A stretch of DNA of 64,000 nucleotides from an uncultured Candidatus Peregrinibacteria bacterium (GCA_937863435.1 CALMES010000147.1:1639-65638), one strand, 5' to 3'; numbered from the stretch's first letter, positions 1-62,284 are shown. Notes: generated by a model from the letters alone, not told the origin. Numbers and translations are program-made.

Positions 1-77
1 ATGAATCCCACAATCATTTTATAAGAGCGAAAGACAAACAAAATTGCCATCCGTGATTTTAATGGTATTGTACATTC

Positions 78-494
78 ATGGTTACATCTTCAGCATTTTT
101 CACACCTTCCTCCATGCACACCTTTCACTCTCCTGTGAGCGGTTCTGGTTTTTACGAAAACAGGTTCTTATATCGAAATAATGCAGAAAGAGTTGAAGCA
201 TTTAAGGGCACATTAGAAAAGCAGGGCATTAACTTGCGAGATCCTCACGTTCAGGACGTTTTAGATAATTATAAAAATCTCATGAGACACATCGCCAATA
301 ATCCATTGCGCAAAAATCCCGAACCCCGTCCCTATCCGGAACTTCCTGCGTTATCATTAGGGAGTACAGTTCCCATGGCTACTCACGAGCAATCTTCACT
401 TCCTTTGGGGGTTGCCCAGCAAGCAATTCGTTTGCTTCTTACGGAAGTTTTACCCAGCCTCTCCAATGGAAGCGCTTTAAAAGGAAATAAATAA
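78..494 (+). CDS. hypothetical protein (138 aa)
   Basis: An intact ORF. A TATTGT hexamer at 66-71 lies 6 nt upstream of the ATG. A hairpin terminator follows at 521-549. No family recognised. Confidence 0.5.
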   Translation: MVTSSAFFTPSSMHTFHSPVSGSGFYENRFLYRNNAERVEAFKGTLEKQGINLRDPHVQDVLDNYKNLMRHIANNPLRKNPEPRPYPELPALSLGSTVPMATHEQSSLPLGVAQQAIRLLLTEVLPSLSNGSALKGNK

Positions 495-520
495 TAAACT
501 TGTTACAAGACAGCTTCACA

Positions 521-549
521 AAAAAGCCCCGACCAATGCAGGGCTTTTT
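521..549. terminator. bidirectional rho-independent terminator
   Basis: AAAAAGCCC (521-529) pairs with GGGCTTTTT (541-549) around an 11-nt loop. It lies between the convergent genes 78-494 and ssb. Confidence 0.6.
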
Positions 550-619
550 TGCTGAGGCTTTTCTTGTATCAGAGAGCCGAAGTTTGCGAATATCGGCTGC
601 GGCAGGATATAGATCGCGA

Positions 620-1483
620 TTAGAACGGAAGATCTTCTGGCTTGATATCGGATTCGTAACTGATATCCGGAACGGCCATGCCGGCAGCAACCGGCTGCGA
701 CTGATCGTAGCTTGGTGCCGACTGGCGCTGACTGCTTGGCACGCTGTCGGACTGCATGGAAGAGAACGCGTCGGCATTCTTGACGCCGAGTAAGCTGACC
801 TGGTCTGCAATAATTTCCGTTGTGTAGCGTTTGACGCCTGCCTGCGTTTCCCAGGTGCGGGTCTGCACGCGGCCAGTGACATACGCGCGGTTACCCTTCT
901 TGATATTTTTCTGGACTTCGACTGCGAGGTCGCCCCAGACAACGACGTTGTGGAACTCGACACGCTCTTTTATTTCGTTGCTGGCTTTGTCTTTCCACTT
1001 TTCGTTTGTCGCAACACCAATAGTGAGCACGTTCTGGCCGCTGGTTGTGGTGCGCATTTCGGGATCTTTGGTGACGTTACCAATGACCTGCACGCGATTG
1101 AGGCAGTTTGTCACCCGCTTTGCATCGGCCGGAACATCGATCTGACCGTTCTTCGGGTCCAGCAGGATCATGTCCATGGCGACGATTTTGGTTTTGGATT
1201 TCTTTTCGCCGCTGGCCGCATCATCCCAGCTGTCTGTCTGTAAGCGACCCGAAATGAAGAGCTGGGCTCCGGCGCGGACATACTGGCCGGCAACATCGGC
1301 CATGGCGCCCCACATAGTGACTGTGTGGAAACTCTTTCCCTGAATAGTCTCGCCCTTTTCGGAGCGGAAGGAGTAAGGAACGACTATGTTTAAATCCGTG
1401 ACGCTGGCGCCACCGGGAGTCTGACGAAGTGTAACAGGTTGTGTCTGGTAACCGATGATATCGATACGATTGAGAGAGAACAT
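620..1483 (-). CDS. ssb: single-stranded DNA-binding protein with two tandem OB folds
   Basis: The start is taken at MFSLNRIDIIGY. There are two SSB-like OB modules (NRIDIIGY...FISGRLQTDSW and NRVQVIGNV...YVTGRVQTRTW). A low-complexity tail ends in the acidic tip EDLPF. Confidence 0.85.
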   Translation of the reverse strand: MFSLNRIDIIGYQTQPVTLRQTPGGASVTDLNIVVPYSFRSEKGETIQGKSFHTVTMWGAMADVAGQYVRAGAQLFISGRLQTDSWDDAASGEKKSKTKIVAMDMILLDPKNGQIDVPADAKRVTNCLNRVQVIGNVTKDPEMRTTTSGQNVLTIGVATNEKWKDKASNEIKERVEFHNVVVWGDLAVEVQKNIKKGNRAYVTGRVQTRTWETQAGVKRYTTEIIADQVSLLGVKNADAFSSMQSDSVPSSQRQSAPSYDQSQPVAAGMAVPDISYESDIKPEDLPF

Positions 1484-1751: not shown

Positions 1752-1825
1752 CAATTCGTACTTCGCTCTCAAATTCGTTTGAAACCTCTAACAAAATTCG
1801 GCTCCGATAGTGTATTATCGCACCC

Positions 1826-4800
1826 ATGCGTCGGCGCACATTTTTGGGCAGCATAGGTCTCATGGGTCTTGCATTGCTGCAAAGCGCTCAGGCTGAGCAG
1901 TTTCAGCCAAAATATAACAATCCACAAACGTACGCCGAGGTGCAAAAGGGCATTGCCGAACTGAAGAAAAATATTGAGAGCGTCCAGTGCGGCGGCTGGC
2001 AGTCCGGCACAGAAGAAGAGGATGCAGCCAGTATGGGCGGCTGCAACGTACAGATACGCTGCGCCAGTGACAGTGCGGCGGCCACCGGCCCGGGAGACGG
2101 CAGCGATGAGGGCGGAGACATCGGCATCTGCTACGGCCGTGTCGCTTTCGCCAGCCGTAAAGATGCATCCGGCACCATGAATGTCTGTTCATCACGACCG
2201 AAAAACAACAAGGGCGAAACATACTTTCTTATTCATGAACTGGCCCATACGCTGCAATTCTGTCCGCATCGCGTGGGGGAGAGCGTGATTCATTCCCGCG
2301 AAACGTGCTGCAAATACGAGCGCGAAGCCTATCGCGCGCAATGCCAGGCAATGGCGGAAGACGGACAGCTTTCCGGCATTTCGATTGATCAGTGTGCCGA
2401 CTACGGCGCGTCCTATTTAAGCTGCGACAAATACGGTGTCAATGCGTGCGGCGTTCCGCCGATTGAGCCTGCAATGCAGATCACCATCCGCAAAGCGCTC
2501 TACGACGGCGGCGGCAAAACATGTGCGCAGGAAACAGCCGGACTCGACACAAAAAACCCGGACGCCAGCGGAGCCGACCCCCGTATCAAGGCGCTGCTGA
2601 AGCAAATCAACAAGCTGTCGGACGACCAGACCAAAAGCTCGAGCAGCACACCCTCCGCATTCCCGATGCCTGTTGTGACGGGCGCGCCCGGACGGGCAAA
2701 TCCCACCCCGACCGCGGACATAAAGCTGGGCGTCGGCGTACGCGCCGCATTCACCTTCCCCGACACGACCCTGGGCTTCAAGACCGCTTGTGACATCCAT
2801 CAGGCAAAAGACGCTCGCGGCAACGACATCAACCCTGAACGTCTGTGCATCAATGAAAATCCCGAACGAAACACTCCCAAAGACTGTAAAAAATTGTACG
2901 ATTTTCTGATCCGCCAGCAAAAGGACGCCAGACGCAATGACAACTGTGACGGCAGCAAGGAGAAGCTCTGCTTCGACTACACAGGCGTGTGTACCGGCCA
3001 GGGCTGCCGCACGCCGTTCTTTCCCGCATTTTCCTACACTCCACCCGTGTGTCCGCCACCGCCGCTGCCTGTGGTACCCGAGCAGGTGACGCAAAAACAA
3101 TCTTCGTTTTACCGCCACTACACAGTGACCGTTGATGCGCCGCAGAGTAATCACTGGGACGTAAGCGGGGAGTGTTACGACTGGTACATCGAGAAAGACC
3201 CTGAGCTGAACATGACCGTCAAAAAAAAGGCCGGCGGCAGTTACGCCGATACCAGGCCGTACGAACAGTGCGAGGTGAAAATCGGCAAAGACACATCGGC
3301 ATTCGAGAGCTCGTCTTCTTCTGCGGGCACGGCATCCGTGACACCGGGCGGTTCAGCCGGAAGTGCCGCTCCAAACATCACTCCCGAATGGAAACCGGCG
3401 AGTGACCAGAAGGGACAGTTCTGGCCGCAGAAAGGACTCGTCGGCCCGACCGATGATGACAGACAGCCGCGCACTGCCGCCGATCCGTGGGTAGCCGACG
3501 CGCAGACGAATCTGTCAATTCTGGACATGAAGAAAGCGAAAGATGTCACCAAAAACCTGGATGATGAAAACGACATCACGCCGTTTGCCACCAACCTGAT
3601 CGCCATCCGTCAAAAGGCCAGCAAGGCGATTGGGGCTCAGTCGCGTACCGACGATTTCGACGACACGGGCGAGCGCGGGTTTGTCAGCTGGTGGCTTACG
3701 CAGCAGCAGGAAATTATGAAGATTGTTCGCCAGCCGCAGGTACGACTGCTGCTTCCGTCGCGCTTCATTACCGGGCTCGATGAAACCGATGCGCTGTTTG
3801 CCTACGCCAAAGACAGCATTTCACAATCCAACGGCTACAGCGAAATCACCGTTCATGCCGGCTCCGAGGAGCTGGGCAATCTTCTGCAGTCGCTTCAGCA
3901 CAGTTTCTTCCTGCCGATTCAGGAGGTGCGCGTGCCTGTCATCGTGCCGCTGCTGTCGGAAACCGAAGCCAACACACGTATTGCCGAGTGGAAGTTATGG
4001 CAGCAGGAAAATCCTGCACACAAAGCCGATGCCGAGCCGTTCATTCACAAAATTGAAAGCTACCGCGACGCTGCGTTGCGGGTTCGCGACATGCGATCCG
4101 TCCTGCCGGCACGATCGAAGCAGCTGCTCACAGTCCAGAAGCAGATCCGCGGATTCTATGCCAGCTGGTATCTGCAGAACGCCAAGCGCGTCCAGCAATG
4201 GTCGCAGGTGAACGTCGTGCGCACGCAGATCAAGAAAACATGGAATACCATGGCAACAGCCCTGCTCGACGCATCGGCGTGCCAGCTGCAGTGGTGCAGC
4301 AATCAGCGCTACTCGCTGGCGGTTTACTCGCTGCTCGACGGATGGTTCCGCAAAACAGACAGAATACTGTTGAGCGCCACCGACCTCTCCAGTCTGCGGT
4401 ATCGTCCGCCCCGCGATCAGTCGATTGATTTTTCGTGGTTGCAACTGGGGTCAGGATCCAGTCTGCAGATGCCGGTGCTGTGGCCGGTACAAGTGCGTCT
4501 GACCATCCCCCTGCCTCCCCACAGCCTGAATGCGACACTGCCGGATATCGACGATTATCCCGACGTTCCGCAGTACGCCGATAACTACGCGGACTTGTTT
4601 GGCAGCATGCCGGTCCCCGACGTGCGTTTTCCTGCCGGCATCATTCCCCGCAACGAGGATTTTTCGGATTTTGCCATCAGCGATGCCTATCTGGTACCGC
4701 CCGTGGAGCGTGAAGACGTCCTCACGCAGGCACAGCAGATGCTTGATGCCCTGTCTTCTTCGTTTCAGGGCGATGACACCAGCCGCGACAATCTGAAGGG

Positions 4801-10401: not shown

Positions 10402-10410
10402 TGCTAAGAT
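10402..10410 (+). promoter_or_regulatory. extended -10 box TGCTAAGAT
   Basis: It matches the window-wide TGCTAnAnT motif. It lies 6 nt upstream of an in-frame ATC at 10417. Confidence 0.45.
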
Positions 10411-10443
10411 CACCCTATCTCCTCAACTATTTTCATCGCCGGC

Positions 10444-11883: not shown

Positions 11884-11892
11884 TGCTACAAT
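11884..11892 (+). promoter_or_regulatory. extended -10 box TGCTACAAT for dnaE
   Basis: It lies 7 nt upstream of the dnaE ATG (11900). No SD is present. Confidence 0.5.
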
Positions 11893-11899
11893 CCCATCA

Positions 11900-14800
11900 A
11901 TGAATCCCCAAGACTTCGTCCACCTACATACGCACTCCACTTTCTCTCTTCTGGAGGCTTTGCCTACGCCCGACGAGATTGTGCTGCGTGCCAAGGAATT
12001 GGGGCACGACGCGGTGGCGTTGTCGGACAAGGGCTACACCTACGGACTCATCCAGTTCTACAAAGCCTGCAAGAGCCATAAGATCAAACCGATTCTGGGG
12101 CTGGAAACGTACATTGCCGCACGCACGCGCCACGACAAAGACAGCTCATCCGACACACGGCGCTACCCACTGGTGCTGCTGGCCGAAACAGACGAAGGCT
12201 ACGAAAATCTGCTCAAACTTGCGACCAAGGCGGCGCTCGAAGGCATGTACTACAAGCCGAGAGTGGACAAAGAACTACTGCAGATGCACGGCAAAGGACT
12301 GATTGCGCTCAGCGGTCCAATTTCTGGTGCCATTCCACAGGCGGCGCTGGCCGAAGACCGCGAAAGAGTAAAGGCGCTCGTGGATGAGTACCGTTCGTAC
12401 TTTGGTCACGACAATTTGTATTTCGAACTGATGGATTTCCCAAACGTGCCGGGACAAGCGGAAGTGAATCAGCAACTGATTGCACTTGGCAAAGAATTCG
12501 GCGTGCCGCTGGTTGCCACCAACAATAGCCATTATTGCCGCCTGGAAGACGCCGAAGCCCACGACGTGCTGCTGTGCATTCAGAAGAACGCCAATGTGAA
12601 CGACGCCAGCCGCTTCTCCATGCGCGACAGCGATTTCTCCATGCCCACAAGCGAAGAGATGATGGCCAAATTCGCCCACGTGCCCGAAGCGATTGCCAAC
12701 ACGCGCGTGATTGCCGACCGCTGCACCATCAACATTAAGTTCGGCTCGTATAAAATTCCGAAATTCCCGATTACAACCGGAGAGACAGAGGAGGAGCTGC
12801 TGCGCACCAAATGCGAAGAAGGCTTGCGCGTACGCTATCCGCATGCACAGTCGAGGACAGCTCCGCACAATGGAGAGCAGTTTAGCCCTAAGCAGATCTG
12901 GGACCGATTGGATTACGAGCTGGAGACCATCAACACTATGGGATTTTCGGGGTACTTTCTGATTGTCGCCGACTTCATCGGCGAAGCCAAACGACGCGGC
13001 ATTACCGTGGGTCCCGGCCGTGGATCGGCGGCCGGTTCGATTGTGAGTTACGTGCTGGACATCACCACCCTCGATCCGCTGGAACATGGGCTGCTGTTCG
13101 AGCGCTTTCTGAATCCCGAACGCATCTCCATGCCGGATATCGACGTTGACTTTGCCGATACGCGCAGAGACGAAGTGCTGGAATATGTGCGGGCGAAATA
13201 CGGCACCGATCGTGTGGTCCAGATCTGTACGTTCGGAACACTGGCTGCCCGCGCAGCTGTCAAAGATGTCGGCCGCGCATTTGGTGTGTCATTCAACGAA
13301 ATGAATGCGTTGGCCAAGCTGATTCCCGAGCGTCCGGGCACAACACTCGACGAAGCGCTGGCAACCGACGAGCTGCAGGCCGCCATCAAGCACGATGAAA
13401 ACTACAAGAAAATTATTGATATCGCACTCAAGCTGGAAGGCAAATCGCGCCACGTGTCGGTGCATGCCTGCCGCGTTGTCATCACACCCGAACCGGCGAC
13501 CACCTACACCGCCATTCAGCGTGCGCCGAAAGACGAGAATACGATTATTACGCAGTACGACGCCAAGCCGCTGGAATCTTTGGGGCTGCTCAAAATGGAC
13601 TTCCTGGGCCTTAAGAACCTGACGATCATCCAGACGGCACTCGAAATTATCGAGCGCATGCACGGTATCAAAATTCATATTCCGGCGACGGGGATGAACG
13701 ACAAGAAAACCTTTGAGCTGCTGGCGCGCGGCGAAACAACCGGCGTGTTCCAGCTGGAATCCGCCGGCATGCGCCGCTACTTAAAGCAGCTCAAGCCGTC
13801 GGCCTTCGATGACATTACGGCCATGGTGTCTTTGTACCGCCCGGGTCCGATGGACAAGATTCCGGATTACATCAAATGCAAAAACGGCGAGAAGGAAGTG
13901 AAGTATCTGCATCCGGATTTGGAACCGATTCTCAAGCCCACGTACGGCGTTGGTATTTACCAGGAACAGATTCTGGAAATGGCGCGCACATTCGCCGGAT
14001 TCTCTCTGGCCGAAGCCGACTTGCTGCGCAGAGCCATCGGTAAGAAAATCAAGAAAGAGCTGGACGCACAGCGCGAAATATTTATCCGGAAAGCCAAAGA
14101 AAAAGGCTACACCGAGAAACTGGCTGTGACATTATTCGACGATGTGATTACGCCGTTTGCCGGTTACGGTTTCAACAAATCGCACGGTGCCTGTTACGCG
14201 CGCGTTGCCTACGAAACGGCATTTTTGAAAGCGCATTACCCAACAGAATTCATGGCTGCCCTGCTGAGTAGCGAGCAGGGTGATACCGATCGTATTTCCA
14301 TCGAAATCGAGGAAACACGCGCAATGGGACTGGAAGTTCTGCCGCCGGATATCAATGAATCGCTGTCGGACTTTACGGCGCTCGAAGGCCGCAAAATCCG
14401 CTTTGGACTGACAGCCATCAAAGGAGTCGGCGAAAGCTCCGTTGCCCAGATTATCGCTATTCGCGATGAGGTGGGCGGCAAGGGGAAGTTTGCCAGCCTG
14501 GAAGATTTTGCGCTGCGTGTGCCGAGTAAAATTCTCAACAAGAAACTTTTGGAATCGCTCGCCAAATCCGGTGCGCTGGATTCGCTCGGTGAACGCGCCA
14601 TACTTGTCGGGCAGTATCAGCGGATTGCCGAATTCAGTAAATCCGCCGGCGACAGTGCGGCGTCTCAAGTGGATCTTTTTGAATCGCTCCATACCGCATC
14701 CGATGCGTCGAAAATCTCCTTCGATCCGGTAACACCCGCAACCGCTCAGCAGAAATTGCTGTGGGAAAAAGAGACGCTCGGCCTCTACGTTTCCAGCCAT

Positions 14801-16590: not shown

Positions 16591-16666
16591 TTCTCACTTC
16601 ACCGTGAAATGAGGTCGTTATTTATATACTTCTTGTTCTAAATGTCAACTATTGTACACTCTGTCC

Positions 16667-17290
16667 ATGCACATCCTCCCTGCCACAGCCGAAAATATCG
16701 CGAAAGCTGCCGATATCATTCTCGCGGGCGGCATTGTTGGCCATGCCACCGAAACCTGTTACGGATTGGCATGCGATATGACGAACCTGAAAGCCGTGAC
16801 AAAACTCTTTGACGTCAAACAAAGATCGCACGAAAAATCAGTATCGGCTCTGTTTTCGAGCATCGAAGAATCGGAAAAATTTGTGCTATGGACCGAGCAG
16901 GCGAGAGAGCTTGCGAAGAAATATTTACCCGGCCCGCTCACCATTATTCTGCGCGTACGACCGGACACCTCCTCACCACTTTTTCCGGCTGCTGAAAATC
17001 CGGCAATTGATGACCTGACATTGGGTGTACGCATATCCTCGCATCCGGTTGCCATGCAGCTTTCGGCGCTCTGCAAGCGGCCCATCAGCACGACGTCGGC
17101 GAACTTGGCGAGCCTTCCAAGCCCGTACAGTATTGCTGACATCGTTGCTCAATTTGAAGGCCAATCGTTGCAACCAGACATTCTCCTCGACTCGGGTGTA
17201 CTTCCGTTTTGCCCTCCGTCGACGATTGTTGATTGCTCAAAACAGGAGATGCAAATCGTTCGTCAGGGCGATATCGACGTACGAATCTAG
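16667..17290 (+). CDS. tsaC: L-threonylcarbamoyladenylate synthase (YrdC/TsaC family)
   Basis: The YrdC motif GGIVGHATETCYGLACD is present. A TACACT hexamer at 16655-16660 lies 6 nt before the ATG. Confidence 0.85.
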   Translation: MHILPATAENIAKAADIILAGGIVGHATETCYGLACDMTNLKAVTKLFDVKQRSHEKSVSALFSSIEESEKFVLWTEQARELAKKYLPGPLTIILRVRPDTSSPLFPAAENPAIDDLTLGVRISSHPVAMQLSALCKRPISTTSANLASLPSPYSIADIVAQFEGQSLQPDILLDSGVLPFCPPSTIVDCSKQEMQIVRQGDIDVRI

Positions 17291-17467: not shown

Positions 17468-17476
17468 TGCTATCAT
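17468..17476 (+). promoter_or_regulatory. extended -10 box TGCTATCAT for nrdR
   Basis: It lies 6 nt upstream of the ATG at 17483. Confidence 0.5.
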
Positions 17477-17482
17477 CCCCTC

Positions 17483-17944
17483 ATGCACTGTCCCCGCTGC
17501 AAACACGACGACACGGCTGTTATCGATTCCCGCGATACCGAAGAAGGCCGCGCCATCCGCCGGCGCCGTGAGTGTGAAAAATGCAAGCATCGCTTCACTA
17601 CGTTCGAGCGCCAGGAAATGTCGTCGCTCATTGTGGTCAAACGCGACGGCACGCGCGAACCGTATAGCCGCACCAAACTCGAACGCGGCATTTGGGTCGC
17701 CTGCACCAAGCGTCCGGTGAGCCAGAAGGCGATTGATGACATGCTGAGCGAACTGGAAGAAAAGTGGGGCAAAAACCGCGAGGAAGTCGAAAGTTCCGCC
17801 ATCGGGAAAGATGTCATGACCGCACTCGCCGCCATCGACAAAGTCGCCTACATCCGCTTTGCATCGGTGCATCGCGAATTCAAGGATGTGGAGGAATTTA
17901 AGAAAGAATTGGGGAAGTTGTTTGGTGGCAAAGAAGAAAAATAA
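17483..17944 (+). CDS. nrdR: transcriptional repressor NrdR
   Basis: The N-terminus MHCPRCKHDDTAVIDSRDT...RRRRECEKCKHRFTTFE carries the zinc ribbon. An ATP-cone domain follows. Confidence 0.9.
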   Translation: MHCPRCKHDDTAVIDSRDTEEGRAIRRRRECEKCKHRFTTFERQEMSSLIVVKRDGTREPYSRTKLERGIWVACTKRPVSQKAIDDMLSELEEKWGKNREEVESSAIGKDVMTALAAIDKVAYIRFASVHREFKDVEEFKKELGKLFGGKEEK

Positions 17945-18248: not shown

Positions 18249-18362
18249 AGTGATACAGGATATCATATTTTTGATTACAAAAATCGGATTTGAAAGATGG
18301 GCTGTAAGGGGGGGGTGTTGATTAATGTGAAAATATCTGACCAAAGAATTATCCTTAAAAAA

Positions 18363-18500: not shown

Positions 18501-18509
18501 TGCTACACT
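18501..18509 (+). promoter_or_regulatory. extended -10 box TGCTACACT for aspS
   Basis: It lies 6 nt upstream of the ATG at 18516. Confidence 0.5.
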
Positions 18510-45651: not shown

Positions 45652-45807
45652 GAATAGAGAGAGTGAGGAAATAGTCGCTTCCTACTAAACTTCAGGCACA
45701 CAGTTTTTGCAAGAGCAGACATACTGCTTCGTTTGTTCTGTCGAGTATTTTTTCAATGTGTAAAAAGCCTTTATGCAAGTTCCAAGAGTCGCGTATAGTG
45801 ACCGTGC

Positions 45808-46731
45808 ATGCTCAAAACATCCATCGCCGGCGTCGCATTTCCATCGTACATTTTCAACGCATCTGGCCCATGCGACACCACTTTTGAAGAATTGTCCGCA
45901 ATTGGCGCATCGCAATGCGGAGCGATTACGATGAAATCGAGTACACTCGAGTTTCGTGCGGGTAACGAAGAGCCGCGCTATGTTCGCGTGCCGCTTGGCT
46001 CTATCAACAGCATGGGTTTGCCGAATTTGGGCTACAAACAGTACATTGATTTTGCTCCAAAGCTCAAACAATATAACAAACCGATTGTCGCGAGTTTGGC
46101 CGGACTTTCGCCCGATGAATTTCCTGTACTGGTCAAAGCATTTCAGGAAAGTGATGCCGATGTGATCGAAGTGAATCTGTCGTGTCCGAATGTGAAAGGC
46201 AAGCCGCAGATTGGCTACGATTTTGCCATGTCGGAGCAGGTTCTTAAAAGCATCATGAACCTTGGCTCGAAACCTCTTGGCGTGAAATTGCCACCGTACT
46301 TCGATGCAGTGCATTGGGATCAGATGGCGGAAATTCTGCTCAAATTCCCACTCGCATTCGTCTGCTGCATTAATTCGGTTGGCAATACGCTCATCATCGA
46401 TCCGGAAACCGAACGGCCGCTCATCAAGCCTAAAGGCGGCTTTGGCGGTTTGGGTGGCGAATACATCAAGCCAGTAGCGCTTGCCAACGTGCGGGCATTC
46501 TACGAACGTCTGCAAGGAAAAATTGCAGTGATTGGCGTCGGTGGCATTGCAACTGGAACAGATGCATTTGAATTTCTCCTGGCTGGTGCTGACGCTGTGC
46601 AAGTCGGCACGCAATTCGAGAAAGAAGGGCCGGATTGTTTTGAGCGAATTTCTCGCGAGCTGGAGCAAATATTGAAGCGAAAGGGCTATGCGGATATTGC
46701 GGCGGCGAAGGGGAAGTTGAAGATTTTATAG
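45808..46731 (+). CDS. pyrD: dihydroorotate dehydrogenase, class 1
   Basis: The motif NASGP is present, along with the active-site Cys context NLSCPNV and GGIATG. Confidence 0.9.
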   Translation: MLKTSIAGVAFPSYIFNASGPCDTTFEELSAIGASQCGAITMKSSTLEFRAGNEEPRYVRVPLGSINSMGLPNLGYKQYIDFAPKLKQYNKPIVASLAGLSPDEFPVLVKAFQESDADVIEVNLSCPNVKGKPQIGYDFAMSEQVLKSIMNLGSKPLGVKLPPYFDAVHWDQMAEILLKFPLAFVCCINSVGNTLIIDPETERPLIKPKGGFGGLGGEYIKPVALANVRAFYERLQGKIAVIGVGGIATGTDAFEFLLAGADAVQVGTQFEKEGPDCFERISRELEQILKRKGYADIAAAKGKLKIL

Positions 46732-46956
46732 AATCGGAATATTTCGATTTATATTGCCATTGCCGTGAGACGCCCCGGACTGAATCTTTGCAACTCAACG
46801 ATTTGGCTGGATGCTGATTATTGAACTAGTCGGGGCGTCTGTATTTAAAAAATTTATAAATTCTTTCAATTATTTCCGAGATTAGGAAATCTTCCCTATA
46901 ATAGCCATATATCAGCAATCCTCATCCGCGGCGGCCATGTTGTATCGTCCAAAGGG

Positions 46957-53563: not shown

Positions 53564-53572
53564 TGCTACTCT
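53564..53572 (+). promoter_or_regulatory. extended -10 box TGCTACTCT
   Basis: It lies 6 nt upstream of the ATG at 53579. Confidence 0.5.
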
Positions 53573-53578
53573 ATCTGT

Positions 53579-53962
53579 ATGCCCCGCATCATGGTCTTCG
53601 GCACGTTTGATCACTTTCACCCCGGTCATAAGTTTGTGCTGGATGAAGCGGGCAAGCGCGGGGAAGTGATTGTGATTGTCGCTACAGACGCTCATGTAGG
53701 TCAGATTAAAGGTCGCAAACCTGATCAAAATGAATCGCAGCGTATCCGTGTTTTGCGATCACACTATCCTGATTATACGATTGCTTTGGGTGATCCGGAT
53801 GATTTTATGGCCCCGCTGAAGCACTACAAGCCAGACCTGATTCTGTTGGGTTACGATCAGCAGATGCCGCCTGGAGTGTCGCTCGAGGATTTACCCTGTC
53901 CAATTGAGCGTTTAGCAGCATTTGAGCCGGAAAAGCATAAGAGTAGTCTGCGGAGAGGGTAA
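53579..53962 (+). CDS. cytidylyltransferase-like nucleotidyltransferase (RibL/FAD-synthase-like)
   Basis: The N-terminus IMVFGTFDHFHPGH carries the (H/T)xGH signature. Confidence 0.6.
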   Translation: MPRIMVFGTFDHFHPGHKFVLDEAGKRGEVIVIVATDAHVGQIKGRKPDQNESQRIRVLRSHYPDYTIALGDPDDFMAPLKHYKPDLILLGYDQQMPPGVSLEDLPCPIERLAAFEPEKHKSSLRRG

Positions 53963-54108: not shown

Positions 54109-54117
54109 TGCTATAAT
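54109..54117 (+). promoter_or_regulatory. extended -10 box TGCTATAAT
   Basis: It lies 6 nt upstream of the ATG at 54124. Confidence 0.5.
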
Positions 54118-54123
54118 AACTCG

Positions 54124-54759
54124 ATGACTTTCTACAAACACCCACTTTTCAAACAAATTGCCGGCGCTGTTGCGGGCATGCTGGTGATGACTGGCGTGTA
54201 TTTTGCCATTCAGTCGGCCACGCCGCAGATGACGGCTCTTTTGATCGGCGCCGATTCACGGGTGAGCAATACGGCCGCTCGCGTAGCGGTAAATGATAAG
54301 ACGGCGGATCCGGAGCTCATTGCTCGTCTGGCATCCAAGGCCAGGGAAGTGGCGTCTCAGCTTGCCCCGGATTCATCTGCCGATACCACAACCCAAATGG
54401 AGCAGAATACGATGGAGCGTCTGGCGCGGCGCAAGCAACTCGCTCAATATGCTGCAATTGCGCAGCCGACGGTTACCACTAGCTCGGCTGCATCGCAGAC
54501 ATACATCAGCGCCAATGAGCAGGCACGCATTGCCAGGCGTCGACAGGAACTGGGTCTTGCGGCTCAGGAATTGGCGACAAAACAGGTTGCGTCCGGCCCC
54601 GGTCTGCATGCGGGTGCTGATCTCTCGCGTCCTCATGATTTAAGTCAGACCGGCATTCCGCTGCCCCTGCTGGCCGTCTTGGCACTTATTGGCACATCGG
54701 GCATATCTCTCTGGCTCCGTCGTGGCAGATTGTTTGCTATGGAGAAGGCAAAAAACTAG
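54124..54759 (+). CDS. hypothetical protein with N-terminal anchor and LPxTG-like C-terminal signal
   Basis: An N-terminal TM helix is present. The C-terminus is DLSQTG followed by a hydrophobic stretch and RRGR. Confidence 0.55.
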   Translation: MTFYKHPLFKQIAGAVAGMLVMTGVYFAIQSATPQMTALLIGADSRVSNTAARVAVNDKTADPELIARLASKAREVASQLAPDSSADTTTQMEQNTMERLARRKQLAQYAAIAQPTVTTSSAASQTYISANEQARIARRRQELGLAAQELATKQVASGPGLHAGADLSRPHDLSQTGIPLPLLAVLALIGTSGISLWLRRGRLFAMEKAKN

Positions 54760-54768
54760 TATAGAGGT

Positions 54769-55575
54769 GTGTCACTCCTCTTTACAGCAGTACTGTTTGT
54801 TGTCTTCGGATTAGTTTTCGGCAGCTTTGGAAATGCGACTGCCATTCGTCTGGCCAAAGGCGAGAGTCTTGGCGGGCGTTCGCACTGTCCGCACTGTATG
54901 CATGTCATTGCATGGTACGATTTGTTTCCGGTGTTCAGTTACTTGCTGCTTGGGGGTAGATGCCGCAACTGCAAAAAACCGATCGCGCTGCAGTATTTCA
55001 TGATGGAACTTGCTTGTTCGGTGCTTTTTTTACTCGCGCTCGCCTCCTCCCCGCACAATGTTCCTGCAGCTGTCTCAACGGCTATCGTCTTTTTCGGACT
55101 GCTGCTCATATGCGTGTTCGATTTCCATCACCAGCAAATCCCCGATGCGTTTACGGCCATCGTCTTCGTCGGTGCAGTCGCGTCCATTTTACTGCGGGGC
55201 TACAGCGCCATTCCCGACGCACTGACCGGAGCGGCTATTGGCATTATCTGGTTTGGATTCCAGTGGGTGATCAGCCGCGGGACACTCGTCGGCTCCGGTG
55301 ATATCTGGCTTGCGGGCGCGATTGGTATCTGGCTGGGATCCGGTGCCACCGTCACCATGCTCATGGTCAGCTACATTGTGGGTGCCATTGTGGCGTCGTA
55401 CCTCATTCTCACCAAGAAAATGGCGCTCAAAAAAAGCTATCTGCCGTTTGCGCCGTTCATGGCAACCGGTTCGATCATTGCGTTCATAGGTTTCAATAAT
55501 TTACCGCTGGCATTACTCGTGATTGCCTTCCTGGGAATTTCGAATGCGTATTTGGCGTTGATGATCGGGGATTAA
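54769..55575 (+). CDS. pilD: prepilin peptidase (A24 family)
   Basis: The start is GTG. The zinc-binding Cys pairs CPHC...CRNC are present, and the protein is multi-TM. Confidence 0.85.
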   Translation: MSLLFTAVLFVVFGLVFGSFGNATAIRLAKGESLGGRSHCPHCMHVIAWYDLFPVFSYLLLGGRCRNCKKPIALQYFMMELACSVLFLLALASSPHNVPAAVSTAIVFFGLLLICVFDFHHQQIPDAFTAIVFVGAVASILLRGYSAIPDALTGAAIGIIWFGFQWVISRGTLVGSGDIWLAGAIGIWLGSGATVTMLMVSYIVGAIVASYLILTKKMALKKSYLPFAPFMATGSIIAFIGFNNLPLALLVIAFLGISNAYLALMIGD

Positions 55576-56779: not shown

Positions 56780-56946
56780 TGTGCGAGAGGAGTGGGAGGA
56801 TAGCAAGTACGGTAATTACCAATTACCAAAGACCAACTACCAAACATCAATTATTATACTGTTGGGAGTTGGCGTATTGGCAGTTGGTAGTTTTCCAGAA
56901 AGCATCTTCTACAGCCACCGCTCCTGTATCATGTTATTCTTTCACC

Positions 56947-57387
56947 ATGAAGGTTGTCGCCAAAAACCGTCGGGCACTGTTCGATTTTGAAATTCTGGAA
57001 ACGATCGAAGCAGGGATGATTCTCACTGGCCAAGAGGCAAAGTCGGTGCGGATGGGTCATGCCAATTTGGCCGGAGCGTACGTGTCTTTTTTGCACGGGA
57101 AGCCGATTCTCAAAAACGCCAGCATTTCGCCCTACGCGTTTGCATCGAATCTCGATGGCTATGATCCTGGTCGTGAACGTCCTCTGCTCCTTAAAAAGCG
57201 GGAGATTGAGAAATTGAATGCCCAGACAGCCGAGCGGGGCATCTCTATTGTGCCGCTGGAAATCCGTGCGGGGAAGTTCATTAAAATTGCACTTGGCATT
57301 GGTCGCGGCCAGAAGCGACTCGATAAGCGGCAGAAGATCAAAGAACGCGATATGGATAGAAGAATGAGGACAGGAAGGGAATTGTAG
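56947..57387 (+). CDS. smpB: SsrA-binding protein
   Basis: The N-terminus is MKVVAKNRRALFDFEILETIEAGMILTGQEAKS. TATTCT lies 6 nt upstream of the ATG. Confidence 0.9.
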   Translation: MKVVAKNRRALFDFEILETIEAGMILTGQEAKSVRMGHANLAGAYVSFLHGKPILKNASISPYAFASNLDGYDPGRERPLLLKKREIEKLNAQTAERGISIVPLEIRAGKFIKIALGIGRGQKRLDKRQKIKERDMDRRMRTGREL

Positions 57388-57530: not shown

Positions 57531-57568
57531 TTAAGCTTGAGTCTGTACATTCGTCTACACTCTCATCT

Positions 57569-58165
57569 ATGGACCTCCTCCCGTCTCAAATCAAGCGCAC
57601 GATCGAAGAGTTTACCAAGCTGCCCGGCATTGGGCCGAAGTCTGCTGAACGCCTCACGTTTCATTTACTGCGCTCGCGCAAGGCGTCGCCCGAGACGCTC
57701 GGTCGCGCACTTTTAGAGCTTAAAAATCAACTGCAGTACTGCCGCCAGTGCCAGATGGTTGCAACCGAAGAACTGTGTCCGGTGTGTCGCGAAACAAGTC
57801 GCGACAGTTCCGCGATTCTCGTTGTGGAAGAACCGCTGGATGTGATCGCGTTTGAAAAATCCGGCTACAAAGGATTGTACCACGTGCTCCACGGTGTATT
57901 GTCCCCGATCGACGGCATGGGCCCGGAGCAGCTCAAGCTGCGCGAGCTTGTTGACCGGACAAAAGCGGGCGGCGTGAAAGAGCTGATTATCGCCACGAAC
58001 CTGGATATCGAAGGCGAAGCGACAGCTACCTACATTCGCCAGCAGTTATCATCTGTTGTTCCATCTATTTCACGATTGGCTCATGGACTCCCGCGAGGTG
58101 CAGACATTGAGTTTGCGGATCAAGTGACGCTGCGAGAGGCGATTGCGGGGAGAAGGGTGATGTGA
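57569..58165 (+). CDS. recR: recombination protein RecR
   Basis: The HhH segment LPGIGPKSAERLTFHLL, the zinc finger C-x2-C...C-x2-C and a Toprim domain are present. TACACT lies 7 nt upstream. Confidence 0.9.
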   Translation: MDLLPSQIKRTIEEFTKLPGIGPKSAERLTFHLLRSRKASPETLGRALLELKNQLQYCRQCQMVATEELCPVCRETSRDSSAILVVEEPLDVIAFEKSGYKGLYHVLHGVLSPIDGMGPEQLKLRELVDRTKAGGVKELIIATNLDIEGEATATYIRQQLSSVVPSISRLAHGLPRGADIEFADQVTLREAIAGRRVM

Positions 58166-59607: not shown

Positions 59608-59620
59608 TCCGTGTTATTGC

Positions 59621-59649
59621 CTCTTTCTCTCGCAGGAAGAGTTTTTTTT
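59621..59649 (+). terminator. riboswitch expression-platform terminator
   Basis: CTCTTTC-TCTCGCA-GGAAGAG is followed by T8. The aptamer 3-prime segment GAAAGA (59597-59602) can pair with TCTTTC (59622-59627) as an antiterminator. Confidence 0.7.
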
Positions 59650-59806
59650 ATTACTTCTTACCGAGGGACGAGATGGCCACATGATTTATTTCTTCCAAAC
59701 ATGCTCGATGCCTATGTGCATGCGAGCGCTGCAGGGGCAGGCAATCGCCTGAATAACCCCATCCCTTGCAGCGACTGGGTGCTTTTATCAACTTTTTATT
59801 TTATGT

Positions 59807-60751
59807 ATGAACAGCAAAGAATTTTCCTATAATGAGTCTCATGATCCGAAAAGAAAATATTTTTTCTCAGATACATTTGGAGGTAGCGCAGAGTGGGATC
59901 CTCTTTCATTGCCGGACCCGGATGCGCAGATATCAACCGATTTTTCGGGATCTCCGCTTACTCCTTGCGAGCGGCGTTTTGATACGTATGGACAGGAGCG
60001 TGTGACGGATCATCTCTTGCGTCTTATTTTGCAGCAATTTGATGAATTGGCTCGTAGGCCAGACATATCTGGCGGCAGGAGGCAACAGGCTTTACGTCTT
60101 GGAACTGGAGTTTTTATAAATTATGCTCCTCGTACCAGTCACAGCAACGCTCAGCCTTTTTATGTGGCGACTGCTCGTGGTGGAAATATCCGGATTGTTT
60201 CTACTCCTCTTGAAGCCTTGTCTGCAATTAAAGGAGAAATCGAAACTCTTCACCACTTGCCTAATCCAGAACGAGGGGAGGCGGACAATGGTTTGTATGA
60301 CTGGACTCAGCAATTTCGATCGAAATTAACGCCAATTCTCTTGGATCCTGATCATGGACTTGATCTCATTGAAGATGATCCTGCAGATATTCCAGCGCCA
60401 GATAATCGTTGGCATATTGCATTTGTCGATCGATTCGGAAATGTGATTTCGTATACGGATAACCCTGAAGATCAATGGGGGGAAATAGAGACATTGGCTG
60501 ATCGCGTTGGTGATTCGCGTCGGGAAATACGGCTGCTACTTGATGGTCATGAAACTGTCCCTTTGACACTCGCAACATCACTGGGTTCAGCGCACCCGGG
60601 TGGCGTATCGATCTATCGAAATGGTGGTATTGATTTAGTGAGAAAGTGGCAGGTAGGAGAAACGGCTTCCGAGAGACTTGCTCAGTCTGCGTTTAGAAAA
60701 TTAGGCAATCCAACGATAGGTACAACCATAGAAATTGCTCCTAATGCCTAA
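59807..60751 (+). CDS. divergent DUF62-like protein (SAM hydroxide adenosyltransferase/chlorinase-fluorinase fold), function unknown
   Basis: The C-terminal half contains the family hallmark VDRFGNVISY and a GG.SIY..GG.DLV-like tail. The N-terminal catalytic motifs (TDFG, DPGVG, FHGRD) are not conserved. Confidence 0.45.
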   Translation: MNSKEFSYNESHDPKRKYFFSDTFGGSAEWDPLSLPDPDAQISTDFSGSPLTPCERRFDTYGQERVTDHLLRLILQQFDELARRPDISGGRRQQALRLGTGVFINYAPRTSHSNAQPFYVATARGGNIRIVSTPLEALSAIKGEIETLHHLPNPERGEADNGLYDWTQQFRSKLTPILLDPDHGLDLIEDDPADIPAPDNRWHIAFVDRFGNVISYTDNPEDQWGEIETLADRVGDSRREIRLLLDGHETVPLTLATSLGSAHPGGVSIYRNGGIDLVRKWQVGETASERLAQSAFRKLGNPTIGTTIEIAPNA

Positions 60752-62270
60752 AAGCTCTCGTCCCCGTCAGTACCATCGCAATTCCCAGTTTCTCTGCCGC
60801 CGCAAATACTTCTGCATCTTTCACCGATCCGCCGGGCTGGATAATGGCGACTACTCCGGCCTTGGCGGCTTCGGTGAGGGCGTCTGGGAACGGAAAGAAA
60901 GCGTCGCTTGCGAGTACCGATCCTTGCACACGTTCACCCGCGCGCTTGATGGAAATCCATGTCGAATCCACTCGGCTCGTCTGGCCAGCGCCGATGCCGA
61001 CAGTCACGCCGTCTTTGGCGAGGACAATGGCATTGGATTTTGCATGCTTCACCACTTTCCAGGCGAAGAGCAGATCCTGAATTTGGGCAGGAGTTGGCTT
61101 CTTGCTCGTGATGAATTGCAAGTCTGCTTCGTTAATCTGCTTGCTATCCGCACTCTGTACCAGCATGCCGTCGAATGCGCTGCGATAGACGACGCGCTCT
61201 TTTTTCTCGAGCAGCGGCAATTCGATCACACGGATGTTTGGCTTCTGTTTGAGAATTTCCAGTACACCAGCTTCGTAACTTGGCGCCAGAATGATCTCGG
61301 TAAAAATTTTCTGATCAATGATTTTTTTGGCGATCACTTCCGTGCATTCTTTGTTGAGGGCAATGATGACGCCGAAAGCCGAGAGGCGATCGGTGTCGTA
61401 GCCTTTTTGGAACGCGACATTGATATCGCTGTCGGAGGCAATGCCGCTCGGGTTGGCATGTTTTACAAAGACCGCGGTCGGCGCTGTAAAATCACAGGCC
61501 ATTTGCCACGCGGCGTCACTGTCTAAAATATTCAGATAACTCAGCTCTTTTCCCTGCAGCACTTTCCAGCGCACCGGCTTGCCGTCCAGTTCGTAAAACT
61601 TGCCCCACTGATGCGGATTTTCGCCGTAGCGCAGCACGCGGCCGTTTGTGAGTTGTAGACTTTGATTGGCTCCCGTTGTAAAAAACTCCGCAATCAGTCC
61701 ATCGTAGCGTGCCGTGTGGGCGAATACTTTGGCAGCCAGCTGCTTGCGCAGTTCCGGCGATGTGTCGCCATTTTTTTTGATCTCATCAATGACGCGGCTG
61801 TAATCAGCCGGGTCACAAATGACGGTCACAGACGCATGATTTTTTGCCGCTGACCGGAGCATCGTAGGTCCGCCAATATCGATCTGCTCGACCATCTCTT
61901 TTTCAAAATCAGCTCCCGATTTTCCGGCTTTCTTGCCCTGTTCCAGCGTTTGTTCAAACGGATATAAATTCACGACAATCATGTCGATTGCATCGATACC
62001 CAGTTTTTTTGTTTCGGCTTCGTGCTCGCTATCGCCACGGCGATAGAGAATGCCGCCCATCAGCAGCGGATGCATTGTTTTGACTCTGCCAGACAGGCAC
62101 TCGGGGAAATGCGTAATGTCTTCAACAGAGGTTGTTTTGATGTCTTTTTCGGCCAGAAATTTGGCAGTTCCGCCGGTTGAAATAATCTCAAATCCCAGAG
62201 ATATGAGCTGGTTTGCCAGCATATCAATCTGCTGTTTGTCGGACACCGAAAGGAGCGCGCGCTTGGCCAT
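60741..62270 (-). CDS. purH: bifunctional AICAR transformylase / IMP cyclohydrolase
   Basis: The N-terminus MAKRALLSVSDKQQI...STGGTAKFL is the MGS-like domain. An AICARFT domain follows. Confidence 0.95.
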   Translation of the reverse strand: MAKRALLSVSDKQQIDMLANQLISLGFEIISTGGTAKFLAEKDIKTTSVEDITHFPECLSGRVKTMHPLLMGGILYRRGDSEHEAETKKLGIDAIDMIVVNLYPFEQTLEQGKKAGKSGADFEKEMVEQIDIGGPTMLRSAAKNHASVTVICDPADYSRVIDEIKKNGDTSPELRKQLAAKVFAHTARYDGLIAEFFTTGANQSLQLTNGRVLRYGENPHQWGKFYELDGKPVRWKVLQGKELSYLNILDSDAAWQMACDFTAPTAVFVKHANPSGIASDSDINVAFQKGYDTDRLSAFGVIIALNKECTEVIAKKIIDQKIFTEIILAPSYEAGVLEILKQKPNIRVIELPLLEKKERVVYRSAFDGMLVQSADSKQINEADLQFITSKKPTPAQIQDLLFAWKVVKHAKSNAIVLAKDGVTVGIGAGQTSRVDSTWISIKRAGERVQGSVLASDAFFPFPDALTEAAKAGVVAIIQPGGSVKDAEVFAAAEKLGIAMVLTGTRAFRH

Positions 62271-62284
62271 GGGACCGTATACTA

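What the first reader, a model, noticed from the sequence alone, without database searches (positions are those of the whole stretch)
66..62284. Pervasive leaderless-type gene starts: TGCTAnAnT -10 box 6-8 nt upstream of the start codon, no Shine-Dalgarno
About 20 genes have a TAnnnT hexamer ending 6-8 nt before the start codon, and the hexamer is often preceded by TGC. The cases are listed here as hexamer, spacer length and start coordinate.
- TATTGT, 6 nt, ATG 78
- TATTAT, 7 nt, ATG 1826
- TGCTACAAT, 7 nt, ATG 11900
- TACACT, 6 nt, ATG 16667
- TGCTATCAT, 6 nt, ATG 17483
- TGCTACACT, 6 nt, ATG 18516
- TGCTATACT, 6 nt, ATG 21031
- TGCTATAAT, 10 nt, ATG 25029 (minus strand)
- TAGCAT, 6 nt, ATG 40019 (minus strand)
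- TATAAT, 8 nt, ATG 41320 (minus strand)
- TGCTATACT, 6 nt, ATG 43282 (minus strand)
- TATACT, 8 nt, ATG 43539
- TATAGT, 8 nt, ATG 45808
- TGCTACTCT, 6 nt, ATG 53579
- TGCTATAAT, 6 nt, ATG 54124
- TAGTAT, 6 nt, GTG 54769
- TATTCT, 6 nt, ATG 56947
- TACACT, 7 nt, ATG 57569
- TAGTAT, 8 nt, ATG 62270 (minus strand)
With transcription starting about 7 nt after a -10 box, these mRNAs would begin at or within 1-2 nt of the start codon. Internal cistrons of the 1826-10276 operon also lack purine-rich SD sequences. The geometry also helps to fix true start codons, for example for the flippase, nrdR and aspS genes.
Basis: seen in the sequence. Interest (0 to 1): 0.6.

Follow-up and report, generated by a model that had tools for sequence, protein, structure and literature searches.

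The report
Leaderless gene starts in a Peribacteria genome
In this uncultured candidate-phyla-radiation (Peribacteria) bacterium, about a fifth of all genes (19 of 44 in this window) have a promoter -10 box 6-9 bases before the start codon and almost none has a Shine-Dalgarno site, so their mRNAs very probably start at the start codon; the mechanism is well known from other bacteria but I found no report of it for this lineage.

Summary
All 19 listed sites are in the sequence as described. In the window, 19 of 44 called genes have TAnnnT 6-8 nt before the start, against 3.1 expected from shuffles.

The window lies in a 2.14-Mb Peribacteraceae (CPR) MAG. About 0.55 Mb of it is SD-rich, compositionally foreign and phage-like. 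In the 1.5-Mb compositional core, TAnnnT ends 6-9 nt before 28.4% of starts, against 7.8% in dinucleotide shuffles (z about 29), with a sharp peak at 6 nt.

The hexamer behaves as a sigma-70 -10 box:
- An extended TGn (mostly TGC) and a -35 TTG sit at canonical distances and move with the hexamer.
- Position -1 is a pyrimidine and +1 is the A of ATG.
- The signal is concentrated at operon heads.

SD motifs are near background in the core. The 16S tail of a same-genus genome reads AUCUCCUUA rather than ACCUCCUUA. The geometry is conserved in relatives (nrdR: 10 of 11 genomes) and enriched in all 20 family genomes sampled. By a crude pattern test it is also enriched in more than half of 143 other Patescibacteria.

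No RNA data could be examined. This is a new lineage for a known mechanism (Actinobacteria and Deinococcus-Thermus type). Two window genes, pyrC and an RRM protein, appear to start at AUA and AUC at the predicted +1.

The parts
66..80 (+). TATTGT, 6 nt, ATG 78 (138-aa protein, no family found)
   Evidence: TGG precedes the hexamer. Best -35 is TTGCCA at 16 nt.
1813..1828 (+). TATTAT, 7 nt, ATG 1826 (first gene of the 1826-10276 coupled operon)
10403..10419 (+). TGCTAAGAT, 6 nt, ATC 10417: candidate non-AUG leaderless start of a two-RRM protein
   Evidence: Relatives G001, G003 and G007 have ATG at exactly the aligned codon. RRM_1 profile position 1 aligns to residue 5. Starting at TTG 10444 would cut the RNP-2 motif.
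11884..11902 (+). TGCTACAAT, 7 nt, ATG 11900 (dnaE, DNA polymerase III alpha)
16655..16669 (+). TACACT, 6 nt, ATG 16667 (tsaC, threonylcarbamoyl-AMP synthase)
   Evidence: The geometry is kept in L001 and L004.
17468..17485 (+). TGCTATCAT, 6 nt, ATG 17483 (nrdR)
   Evidence: The NrdR profile aligns 1 to 1. In 10 of 11 relatives TAnnnT lies exactly 6 nt before the ATG.
18501..18518 (+). TGCTACACT, 6 nt, ATG 18516 (aspS)
   Evidence: Five of 12 relatives keep spacer 6, and two more have 8-9.
21016..21033 (+). TGCTATACT, 6 nt, ATG 21031 (302-aa protein, no family found)
   Evidence: L001 has the same geometry.
25027..25048 (-). TGCTATAAT, 10 nt, ATG 25029 (124 aa). Near-leaderless, with a predicted leader of about 4 nt.
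40017..40031 (-). TAGCAT, 6 nt, ATG 40019 (ComEC-type MBL-fold protein)
   Evidence: The -10 is weak. Best -35 is TTCACA at 16 nt.
41318..41334 (-). TATAAT, 8 nt (or TAATAT, 6 nt), ATG 41320 (413 aa, no family found)
43280..43297 (-). TGCTATACT, 6 nt, ATG 43282 (Polysacc_synt flippase-type protein). The longest ORF would start at 43354.
43525..43541 (+). TATACT, 8 nt, ATG 43539 (pyrB)
45794..45810 (+). TATAGT, 8 nt, ATG 45808 (pyrD)
46897..46911 (+). TATAAT, 6 nt, ATA 46909: candidate non-AUG leaderless start of pyrC (dihydroorotase)
   Evidence: Seven relatives in other genera have ATG at the aligned codon. Same-genus G001 keeps TATAAT-AGCCAT-ATA. The first ATG, at 46957, would remove 16 conserved residues.
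53564..53581 (+). TGCTACTCT, 6 nt, ATG 53579 (cytidylyltransferase-family protein)
54109..54126 (+). TGCTATAAT, 6 nt, ATG 54124 (211 aa, no family found)
54757..54771 (+). TAGTAT, 6 nt, GTG 54769 (prepilin peptidase A24)
   Evidence: The gap to the upstream gene is only 9 nt, so the promoter sits inside that gene's 3' end.
56935..56949 (+). TATTCT, 6 nt, ATG 56947 (smpB)
57556..57571 (+). TACACT, 7 nt, ATG 57569 (recR)
62268..62284 (-). TAGTAT, 8 nt, ATG 62270 (purH)
18246..18262 (-).
   Evidence: L001 is the same.
31446..31463 (-). Extra candidate: TATGCT, 9 nt, ATG 31448 (433 aa)
29655..29690 (-). Example of the other gene class: a leadered start with a -10 (TAGAAT) about 22 nt upstream and a C/U-rich, G-free leader (cttccctctctcaatacctt) before ATG 29654

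Best explanation
These are sigma-70-type promoters, frequently of the extended -10 kind (TGnTAnnnT) with a weak -35. They sit directly against the coding sequence, so that RNA polymerase starts at the A (or G) of the start codon, or 1-4 nt before it for the 8-10 nt spacers. The resulting mRNAs are leaderless or nearly so.

By analogy with other bacteria, I infer that such mRNAs are translated by direct binding of a ribosome carrying initiator tRNA to the 5'-terminal AUG, with no Shine-Dalgarno pairing.

This is the main identifiable start-site layout of a Peribacteraceae genome that has largely given up the SD/anti-SD system. The other genes are either leadered with C/U-rich, G-poor leaders or are translationally coupled inside operons.

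What is shown:
- the motif, its sharp spacing and its promoter anatomy;
- its restriction mainly to operon heads;
- its conservation in relatives;
- the scarcity of SD;
- the altered anti-SD in congeners.

What is inferred:
- the position of the transcription start;
- the mode of ribosome loading.
For: Spacing:
- TAnnnT occupancy is 12.4%, 6.0%, 5.5% and 5.4% at spacers 6, 7, 8 and 9, against a 2.1% baseline, in 1193 core genes.
- The z-score against dinucleotide shuffles is 29.
- Spacer 6 puts the A of ATG 7 nt after the hexamer, which is the modal bacterial -10-to-TSS distance (established knowledge).

Promoter anatomy:
- A -35 TTG, T at -17, TGC at -15..-13 and a pyrimidine at -1 with a purine at +1.
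- The -35 signal tracks the hexamer for spacers 7-9.

Start codons downstream of TGnTAnnnT:
- ATGs that open coding ORFs number 56, 31, 22, 20 and 23 at spacers 6 to 10.
- At spacers 4, 5, 12 and 15 they number only 1-6.

Operon position: 30.7% of heads against 16% of internal genes.

Start codon type: 95% of the starts behind these boxes are ATG.

Start positions: they match homologue N-termini.

Conservation of geometry with turnover of the free letters:
- nrdR 10 of 11 relatives, aspS 5 of 12.
- The pattern TGnTAnnnT-N6-ATG is at least 2-fold over its reversed control in 19 of 20 family genomes.

SD scarcity in the core and anti-SD variants:
- The anti-SD core is UCUCC in the same-genus genome G001 and in G005 and G006, and UUUCC in G015 and G016.
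- PMC10783764 lists Ca. Peribacter riflensis as SD-scarce and lacking CCUCC.
Against: - No transcription start was mapped.
- Many -35 elements in the window are poor, matching TTGACA at 2-3 of 6 positions.
- Several hexamers are weak (TAGCAT, TATTGT, TAAATT).
- Spacers 8-10 may give short leaders rather than none.
- About a third of the raw hits are expected by chance (7.8% of the 28.4%).
- The MAG has no 16S gene, so its own anti-SD is unknown.
- My gene calls are home-made, not made with Prodigal or GeneMarkS-2.
Confidence: 0.85

Rival explanations
1. The promoters are real, but the transcripts are not strictly leaderless. Either transcription starts a few nt upstream, giving 1-10 nt leaders, or additional upstream promoters make leadered mRNAs that carry most of the expression.
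For: - Spacers 7-10 are also enriched.
- The ATG 25029 case has a 10-nt spacer.
- Some genes, such as 62554, have a better TGCTATCAT box 22 nt upstream.
- In G001 the RRM gene has TGCTACGAT 14 nt before its ATG.
Against: - The sharp mode is at exactly 6 nt.
- The pyrimidine(-1)/A(+1) signature persists for spacers 8 and 9: T at -1 in 54-61%. This suggests that the start codon's A is still the chosen start.
- Leaders of 5 nt or less are conventionally counted as leaderless.
Confidence: 0.1
2. TAnnnT is not a promoter. It is an RNA-level, non-SD translation-initiation signal in leadered mRNAs, like the non-SD RBS of GeneMarkS-2 group B genomes.
For: - The genome lacks SD, so some other signal is needed.
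- The motif also exceeds the control at operon-internal genes: 16% against 5.5%.
Against: - An extended TGn and a -35 TTG sit at canonical sigma-70 distances and move with the hexamer.
- The motif is enriched mainly at operon heads.
- It is absent at the tightly coupled junctions of the 1826-10276 operon.
- The consensus TAtAcT/TAnnnT is the Pribnow box.
Confidence: 0.04
3. The pattern is a chance or compositional artefact, or an artefact of start-codon choice.
For: - TAnnnT is a loose motif: about 2% per offset, or 7.8% for four offsets.
Against: - My starts were chosen by coding score alone.
- z = 29 against dinucleotide shuffles.
- Internal ATGs show 0.6%.
- The N15 spacing control is flat.
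- Homologue N-termini agree with the starts.
- The geometry is conserved in relatives.
Confidence: 0.01

Closest known systems
Leaderless-rich bacterial genomes: GeneMarkS-2 'group C' (Actinobacteria such as Mycobacterium tuberculosis, and Deinococcus-Thermus). See PMC6028130, and PMC12340547 for D. radiodurans.
   Same: - A Pribnow box TAnnnT lies 6-8 nt from the start of first genes in operons.
- The share is 25-50% of operons in group C; here it is about 31% raw and about 21-24% net.
- The start is mostly ATG.
- The -35 is dispensable or weak.
   Different: - In group C the other genes carry SD sites. Here SD is close to background, and the anti-SD is mutated in congeners.
- The remaining heads have C/U-rich, G-poor leaders.
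- The lineage is CPR/Patescibacteria, which those papers do not list.
- There is no experimental TSS or reporter evidence here.
[quoted passage not shown] Peribacter riflensis at 7% SD). See also the 'no anti-SD' organisms of PMC6107228.
   Same: - Same lineage.
- SD motifs are near background in the core genome.
- The 16S tail is AUCUCCUUA in the same-genus genome, and UUUCC in two other genera.
   Different: - Those papers record the loss of SD/anti-SD but, as far as I read them, do not describe what replaces it in Peribacteria: -10 boxes abutting the start, and CU-rich leaders.
- At least one family member (G002) still has the canonical CACCUCC.
SD-independent initiation in Bacteroidia/Flavobacteriia
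   Same: SD is rarely used, and the anti-SD is lost or unused.
   Different: - To my knowledge the Bacteroidetes promoter is TAnnTTTG at -7 with a -33 TTTG, and the mRNAs are leadered with A-rich leaders.
- Here the promoter is sigma-70-like (TTG, TGn, TAnnnT), many genes have no leader, and the leaders that exist are C/U-rich.

Membership tests
Bacterial leaderless-rich genome (GeneMarkS-2 group C type) | A -10 (Pribnow) motif localised at a fixed, short distance (6-8 nt) from gene starts | tested here: met
   The peak is at spacer 6 (12.4%), with 5.4-6.0% at spacers 7-9, against a 2.1% baseline. z = 29 against shuffles.
Bacterial leaderless-rich genome (GeneMarkS-2 group C type) | The motif is a promoter element (with -35 and extended -10 context) and precedes first genes in operons rather than internal genes | tested here: met
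   A -35 TTG, TGn and Y(-1)R(+1) track the hexamer. Operon heads carry it at 30.7% and internal genes at 16%.
Bacterial leaderless-rich genome (GeneMarkS-2 group C type) | A substantial share of operons (roughly 25-50%) is affected | tested here: met
   30.7% of core operon heads raw, and about 21% of all core genes after subtracting the baseline. In the window the count is 19 of 44.
Bacterial leaderless-rich genome (GeneMarkS-2 group C type) | The remaining genes use SD-type ribosome-binding sites | tested here: not met
   Core heads have SD-like motifs at 6.2% against a 3.1% control, and core internal genes at 18.5% against 7%. Strong SD usage is confined to compositionally foreign, phage-like contigs.
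Bacterial leaderless-rich genome (GeneMarkS-2 group C type) | Mapped transcription starts coincide with start codons (5' UTR of 5 nt or less) | not testable with these tools
SD-scarce lineage lacking the CCUCC anti-SD (PMC10783764 class iv) | The 16S rRNA 3' tail lacks CCUCC | tested here: inconclusive
   There is no 16S gene in this MAG. Same-genus G001 and also G005 and G006 have CAUCUCCUUA. G015 and G016 have UUUCC. G002 is canonical.
SD-scarce lineage lacking the CCUCC anti-SD (PMC10783764 class iv) | A low fraction of genes has an SD motif upstream | tested here: met
   In 1193 core genes, GGAGG occurs 20 times against 7 in the control, and GAGGT 28 against 10. In the window, 1 of 44 genes has an SD.
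Bacteroidetes-type SD-independent expression | A TAnnTTTG -7 promoter and A-rich leaders | tested here: not met
   The consensus is TGnTAnnnT with a -35 TTG. The leaders are C/U-rich and G-poor.

The most novel reading that the evidence does not exclude
Leaderless initiation from start-abutting extended -10 promoters may be a default expression mode across much of the Candidate Phyla Radiation, not only in Peribacteraceae. It would be coupled to erosion of the SD/anti-SD system.

In this setting a 5'-terminal AUA or AUC may serve as a start codon (pyrC and the RRM protein in this window). That would mean relaxed start-codon discrimination on leaderless mRNAs in these reduced ribosomes.
Probability: 0.2. 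Interest if true: 0.7.

Novelty: new member of a known kind. Interest (0 to 1): 0.5.

Why it matters
CPR bacteria make up a large part of bacterial diversity, are almost all uncultured, and have reduced ribosomes. How they start translation is largely unknown beyond the remark that some lack the anti-SD.

A start-site layout made of leaderless genes, C/U-rich leaders and coupling has three practical consequences.

1. **Gene calling.** SD-trained gene finders will misplace starts. Examples here are aspS, nrdR, the flippase, pyrC and the RRM protein.
2. **Binning.** SD-rich contigs stood out as foreign or phage DNA.
3. **Expression design.** It informs any future genetic system built for these organisms.

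It also adds a deep-branching lineage to the argument that leaderless initiation is an old and recurrent solution.

Tried and rejected
1. **SD use in the whole MAG.** Over the whole MAG I first found a clear SD peak: 26% of operon-internal genes. It segregates by contig.
   - The SD-rich contigs are tetranucleotide outliers.
   - They encode phage portal, terminase and primase-helicase proteins.
   - After a composition-only split the core is SD-poor.
   - So 'the genome uses both SD and leaderless starts' was rejected for the chromosome.

2. **General use of AUA, AUC or AUU as 5'-terminal starts.** There is no enrichment of ATH at spacer 6 over other spacers, either in frame upstream of called starts or after TGnTAnnnT. 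Only individual cases remain.

3. **infC starting at ATT after TACAAT-N6 (C120:3241).** This was rejected.
   - The N-terminal extension LRQR...RPRINEQ is conserved upstream in all family members.
   - The TACAAT encodes Tyr-Asn.
   - The real start is an NTG codon after a C/U-rich leader.

4. **SD sites adapted to the variant anti-SD (GGAGA/GAGAU).** These are not enriched over GGAGG/GAGGU.

5. **16S rRNA of the MAG itself.** It is absent.

7. **Literature.** Searches for leaderless with Patescibacteria, CPR, Peribacteria or Saccharibacteria found no report of the phenomenon.

Full report
**What the window is**

- The window is C147:1639-65638 of a 2.14-Mb, 168-contig MAG with GC 50%.
- AspS has its closest relatives (76-95% identity) in MAGs labelled Candidatus Peribacteria or Peribacteraceae. 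This is the CPR/Patescibacteria group.
- The standard code fits: full-length NCBIfam matches were obtained under table 11.

**The observation**

- I made my own gene calls from a codon-usage model and chose starts by coding score alone, without any motif information.
- On these calls, 19 of 44 window genes have TAnnnT with a 6-8 nt spacer. Dinucleotide shuffles of the upstream 60 nt give 3.1 +/- 1.6, with a maximum of 9 in 1000.
- The listed starts agree with the N-termini of family profiles:

| Protein | Query residue to profile position |
|---|---|
| NrdR | 1 to 1 |
| AspS | 1 to 3 |
| DnaE | 3 to 3 |
| TsaC | 6 to 6 |
| PyrB | 6 to 1 |
| PyrD | 2 to 4 |
| RecR | 5 to 4 |
| PurH | 1 to 4 |
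| SmpB | 4 to 2 |
| Flippase-type Polysacc_synt | 8 to 3 |
| Prepilin peptidase | 12 to 1 |

For nrdR, aspS and the flippase the longest ORF starts further upstream.

**A complication in the genome: foreign contigs**

- Over the whole MAG I saw both the -10 signal and a clear SD signal.
- The two signals segregate by contig.
- The SD-rich, -10-poor contigs are outliers in tetranucleotide space.
- Their largest proteins are phage portal, large terminase and primase-helicase proteins.
- A composition-only definition gives a core of 61 contigs and 1.495 Mb. The same-genus genome G001 has 1.4 Mb. A further 0.55 Mb is foreign sequence.

| Gene set | n | TAnnnT at spacer 6-9 | Control offsets | SD-like motif | SD control |
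|---|---|---|---|---|---|
| Core operon heads | 890 | 30.7% | 11.5% and 6.9% | 6.2% | 3.1% |
| Core internal genes | 200 | 16% | 5.5% | 18.5% | 7% |
| Foreign contigs | – | background | – | about 30% | – |

- 'No Shine-Dalgarno' is therefore correct for the organism itself.

**Strength and shape of the signal in the core**

- In 1193 core genes, TAnnnT occupancy is 12.4%, 6.0%, 5.5% and 5.4% at spacers 6, 7, 8 and 9.
- It is about 2.1% at every other offset from 0 to 44.
- The net excess is about 21% of all genes.
- Against 200 dinucleotide shuffles the z-score is 29.
- Downstream of the stricter TGnTAnnnT, ATGs that open coding ORFs number 56, 31, 22, 20 and 23 at spacers 6-10, against 1-6 at spacers 4, 5, 12 and 15.
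- The commonest hexamers are TATACT, TATTCT, TACACT, TATCAT and TACAAT. TGC precedes 33 of 148 spacer-6 boxes.

**Why the motif is a promoter**

For the spacer-6 class (n = 162), one search shows:
- positions -35, -34 and -33 read T 60%, T 52% and G 36%;
- T is at -17;
- T, G and C are at -15, -14 and -13 (49%, 44% and 40%);
- position -1 is C or T in 89%.

Further points:
- For spacers 7, 8 and 9 the -35 signal moves by 1, 2 and 3 nt. It is therefore tied to the hexamer and not to the ATG.
- This is the anatomy of a sigma-70 promoter of the extended -10 type. The A of the ATG sits 7 nt after the hexamer, which is the modal start distance (established knowledge).
- The pyrimidine at -1 persists for spacers 8 and 9 (T in 54-61%). 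This hints that the A of the ATG is still the preferred start.
- Starts behind these boxes are 95% ATG.

**Related genomes**

- nrdR keeps TAnnnT exactly 6 nt before its ATG in 10 of 11 Peribacteria genomes, with different hexamer and spacer letters.
- aspS does so in 5 of 12 genomes, and two more have spacers of 8-9. tsaC does so in 2-3 of 8.
- The pattern TGnTAnnnT-N6-ATG exceeds its reversed control at least 2-fold in 19 of 20 same-family genomes, with a median of 3.1. In 15 genomes of other families of the class the median is only 1.4.
- In 143 Patescibacteria of other classes the median is 2.4 against the reversed control and 2.1 against an N15 spacing control. The N6/N15 ratio is at least 2 in 81 genomes and at least 3 in 35. 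It is individually significant (p < 0.001) in 62 and below 1.3 in 23.
- This crude test is not calibrated on named genomes. It suggests that the layout is widespread but patchy in the CPR.

**The anti-SD**

The MAG has no 16S gene. In relatives the 3' tail reads as follows:

| Genome | 16S 3' tail |
|---|---|
| G001 (same genus), G005, G006 | GGAACAUCUCCUUA |
| G015 | CAUUUCCUUA |
| G016 | CGUUUCCUUA |
| G002, and G019 of another family | canonical CACCUCC |

- This agrees with PMC10783764, which lists Ca. [quoted passage not shown]
- An S1 homologue with four S1 domains is present in all 21 genomes examined.

**What the other genes do**

- Among core operon heads without a start-abutting -10, 34% have at least 14 pyrimidines and at most 2 G in the last 20 nt, against 7.6% at a control offset.
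- Words such as TTTCCC and CTTCCC peak 9-10 nt before the ATG. A -10 box often lies 25-45 nt upstream.
- Window examples are the starts at 1483, 29654, 45651 and 56770, all on the minus strand.
- Internal cistrons of the 1826-10276 operon are joined by overlaps or gaps of 0-2 nt without any purine-rich element. This fits termination-reinitiation coupling, which is my inference.

**Non-AUG starts at the predicted +1**

Two earlier notes on this window led me to test these.

- pyrC:
  - TATAAT (46897-46902) is followed after 6 nt by an in-frame ATA at 46909.
  - Dihydroorotase profiles begin to align just after it.
  - Seven relatives from other genera have ATG at exactly that codon.
  - The same-genus genome keeps TATAAT-AGCCAT-ATA, though it also has an in-frame ATG nine codons upstream that is absent here.
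- RRM protein:
  - TGCTAAGAT is followed after 6 nt by an in-frame ATC at 10417.
  - Three relatives have ATG at that codon (MSSTLFIAGLSW). The next canonical start, TTG 10444, would cut the RNP-2 motif.
- Genome-wide there is no enrichment of ATH at +1, so these remain individual candidates.
- A third candidate, infC with ATT, was rejected. infC instead starts at an NTG codon after a C/U-rich leader: CTG in 7, TTG in 3, GTG in 1 and ATG in 1 of 12 genomes.

**Comparison with what is known**

- The arrangement works like the leaderless genes of Actinobacteria and Deinococcus-Thermus (GeneMarkS-2 group C, PMC6028130). PMC12340547 shows experimentally for D. radiodurans that a TAnnnT next to the ORF is the -10 of leaderless genes.
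- It differs in that the rest of the genome does not use SD.
- In the paper library I found no report of leaderless transcription in Peribacteria or any CPR lineage. PMC10783764 reports only the SD/anti-SD loss.
- Earlier agents of this scan reached the same reading on other Peribacteria genomes. Those are not independent evidence.

**Limits**

The transcription starts are therefore predicted.
- The gene calls are my own.
- The phylum-wide test is crude.

**Verdict**

- This is a new lineage for a known mechanism, of moderate interest.

Noticed in passing
window 46897-46959: pyrC appears to start at ATA 46909, exactly 6 nt after TATAAT. Seven relatives in other genera have ATG at the aligned codon. 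Same-genus G001 keeps the ATA. The first ATG, at 46957, would delete 16 conserved residues.
   Followed up: yes
window 10403-10446: The two-RRM protein appears to start at ATC 10417, 6 nt after TGCTAAGAT. G001, G003 and G007 have ATG at that codon. Starting at TTG 10444 would cut the RNP-2 motif.
   Followed up: yes
genome contig C120, about 3166-3715 (outside the window); loci L112-L123: infC (IF3) has no ATG start. A conserved N-terminal extension begins at an NTG codon directly after a C/U-rich leader: CTG in 7, TTG in 3, GTG in 1 and ATG in 1 of 12 Peribacteraceae. This is reminiscent of the autoregulatory unusual start codon of infC in other bacteria.
   Followed up: partly
genome contigs C107, C96, C108, C72, C146, C67, C10, C29, C41 and others (about 0.55 Mb, outside the window): The MAG contains SD-rich contigs that are compositional outliers and encode phage portal, terminase and primase-helicase proteins. 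They inflate the MAG to 2.14 Mb, against about 1.4 Mb for the congener. They would mislead any genome-wide SD statistic.
   Followed up: partly
window, upstream of the minus-strand starts at 1483, 29654, 45651, 56770 and 59381; genome-wide in core contigs: Leadered genes carry C/U-rich, G-poor leaders (TTTCCC or CTTCCC ending 9-10 nt before the ATG) in place of SD. 34% of the non-leaderless operon heads meet a pyrimidine/G criterion, against 7.6% at a control offset. What reads this signal is unknown. An S1 homologue is present.
   Followed up: partly
loci L082-L090 (16S 3' ends of relatives): The anti-SD core varies within one family: CCUCC (G002), UCUCC (G001, G005, G006) and UUUCC (G015, G016). 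This looks like stepwise erosion.
   Followed up: partly
143 Patescibacteria genomes G031-G178: TGnTAnnnT-N6-ATG is at least 2-fold over the N15 spacing control in 81 of 143 genomes from other CPR classes, and below 1.3-fold in 23. Leaderless-type geometry may therefore be widespread but patchy in the CPR. The test is not calibrated on named genomes.
   Followed up: partly
window 41740-41760 (minus strand): The only SD-like element in the window is CAGGAGAG, 8-9 nt before ATG 41739. It would pair perfectly with the variant anti-SD (UCUCCU) of the congener.
   Followed up: no
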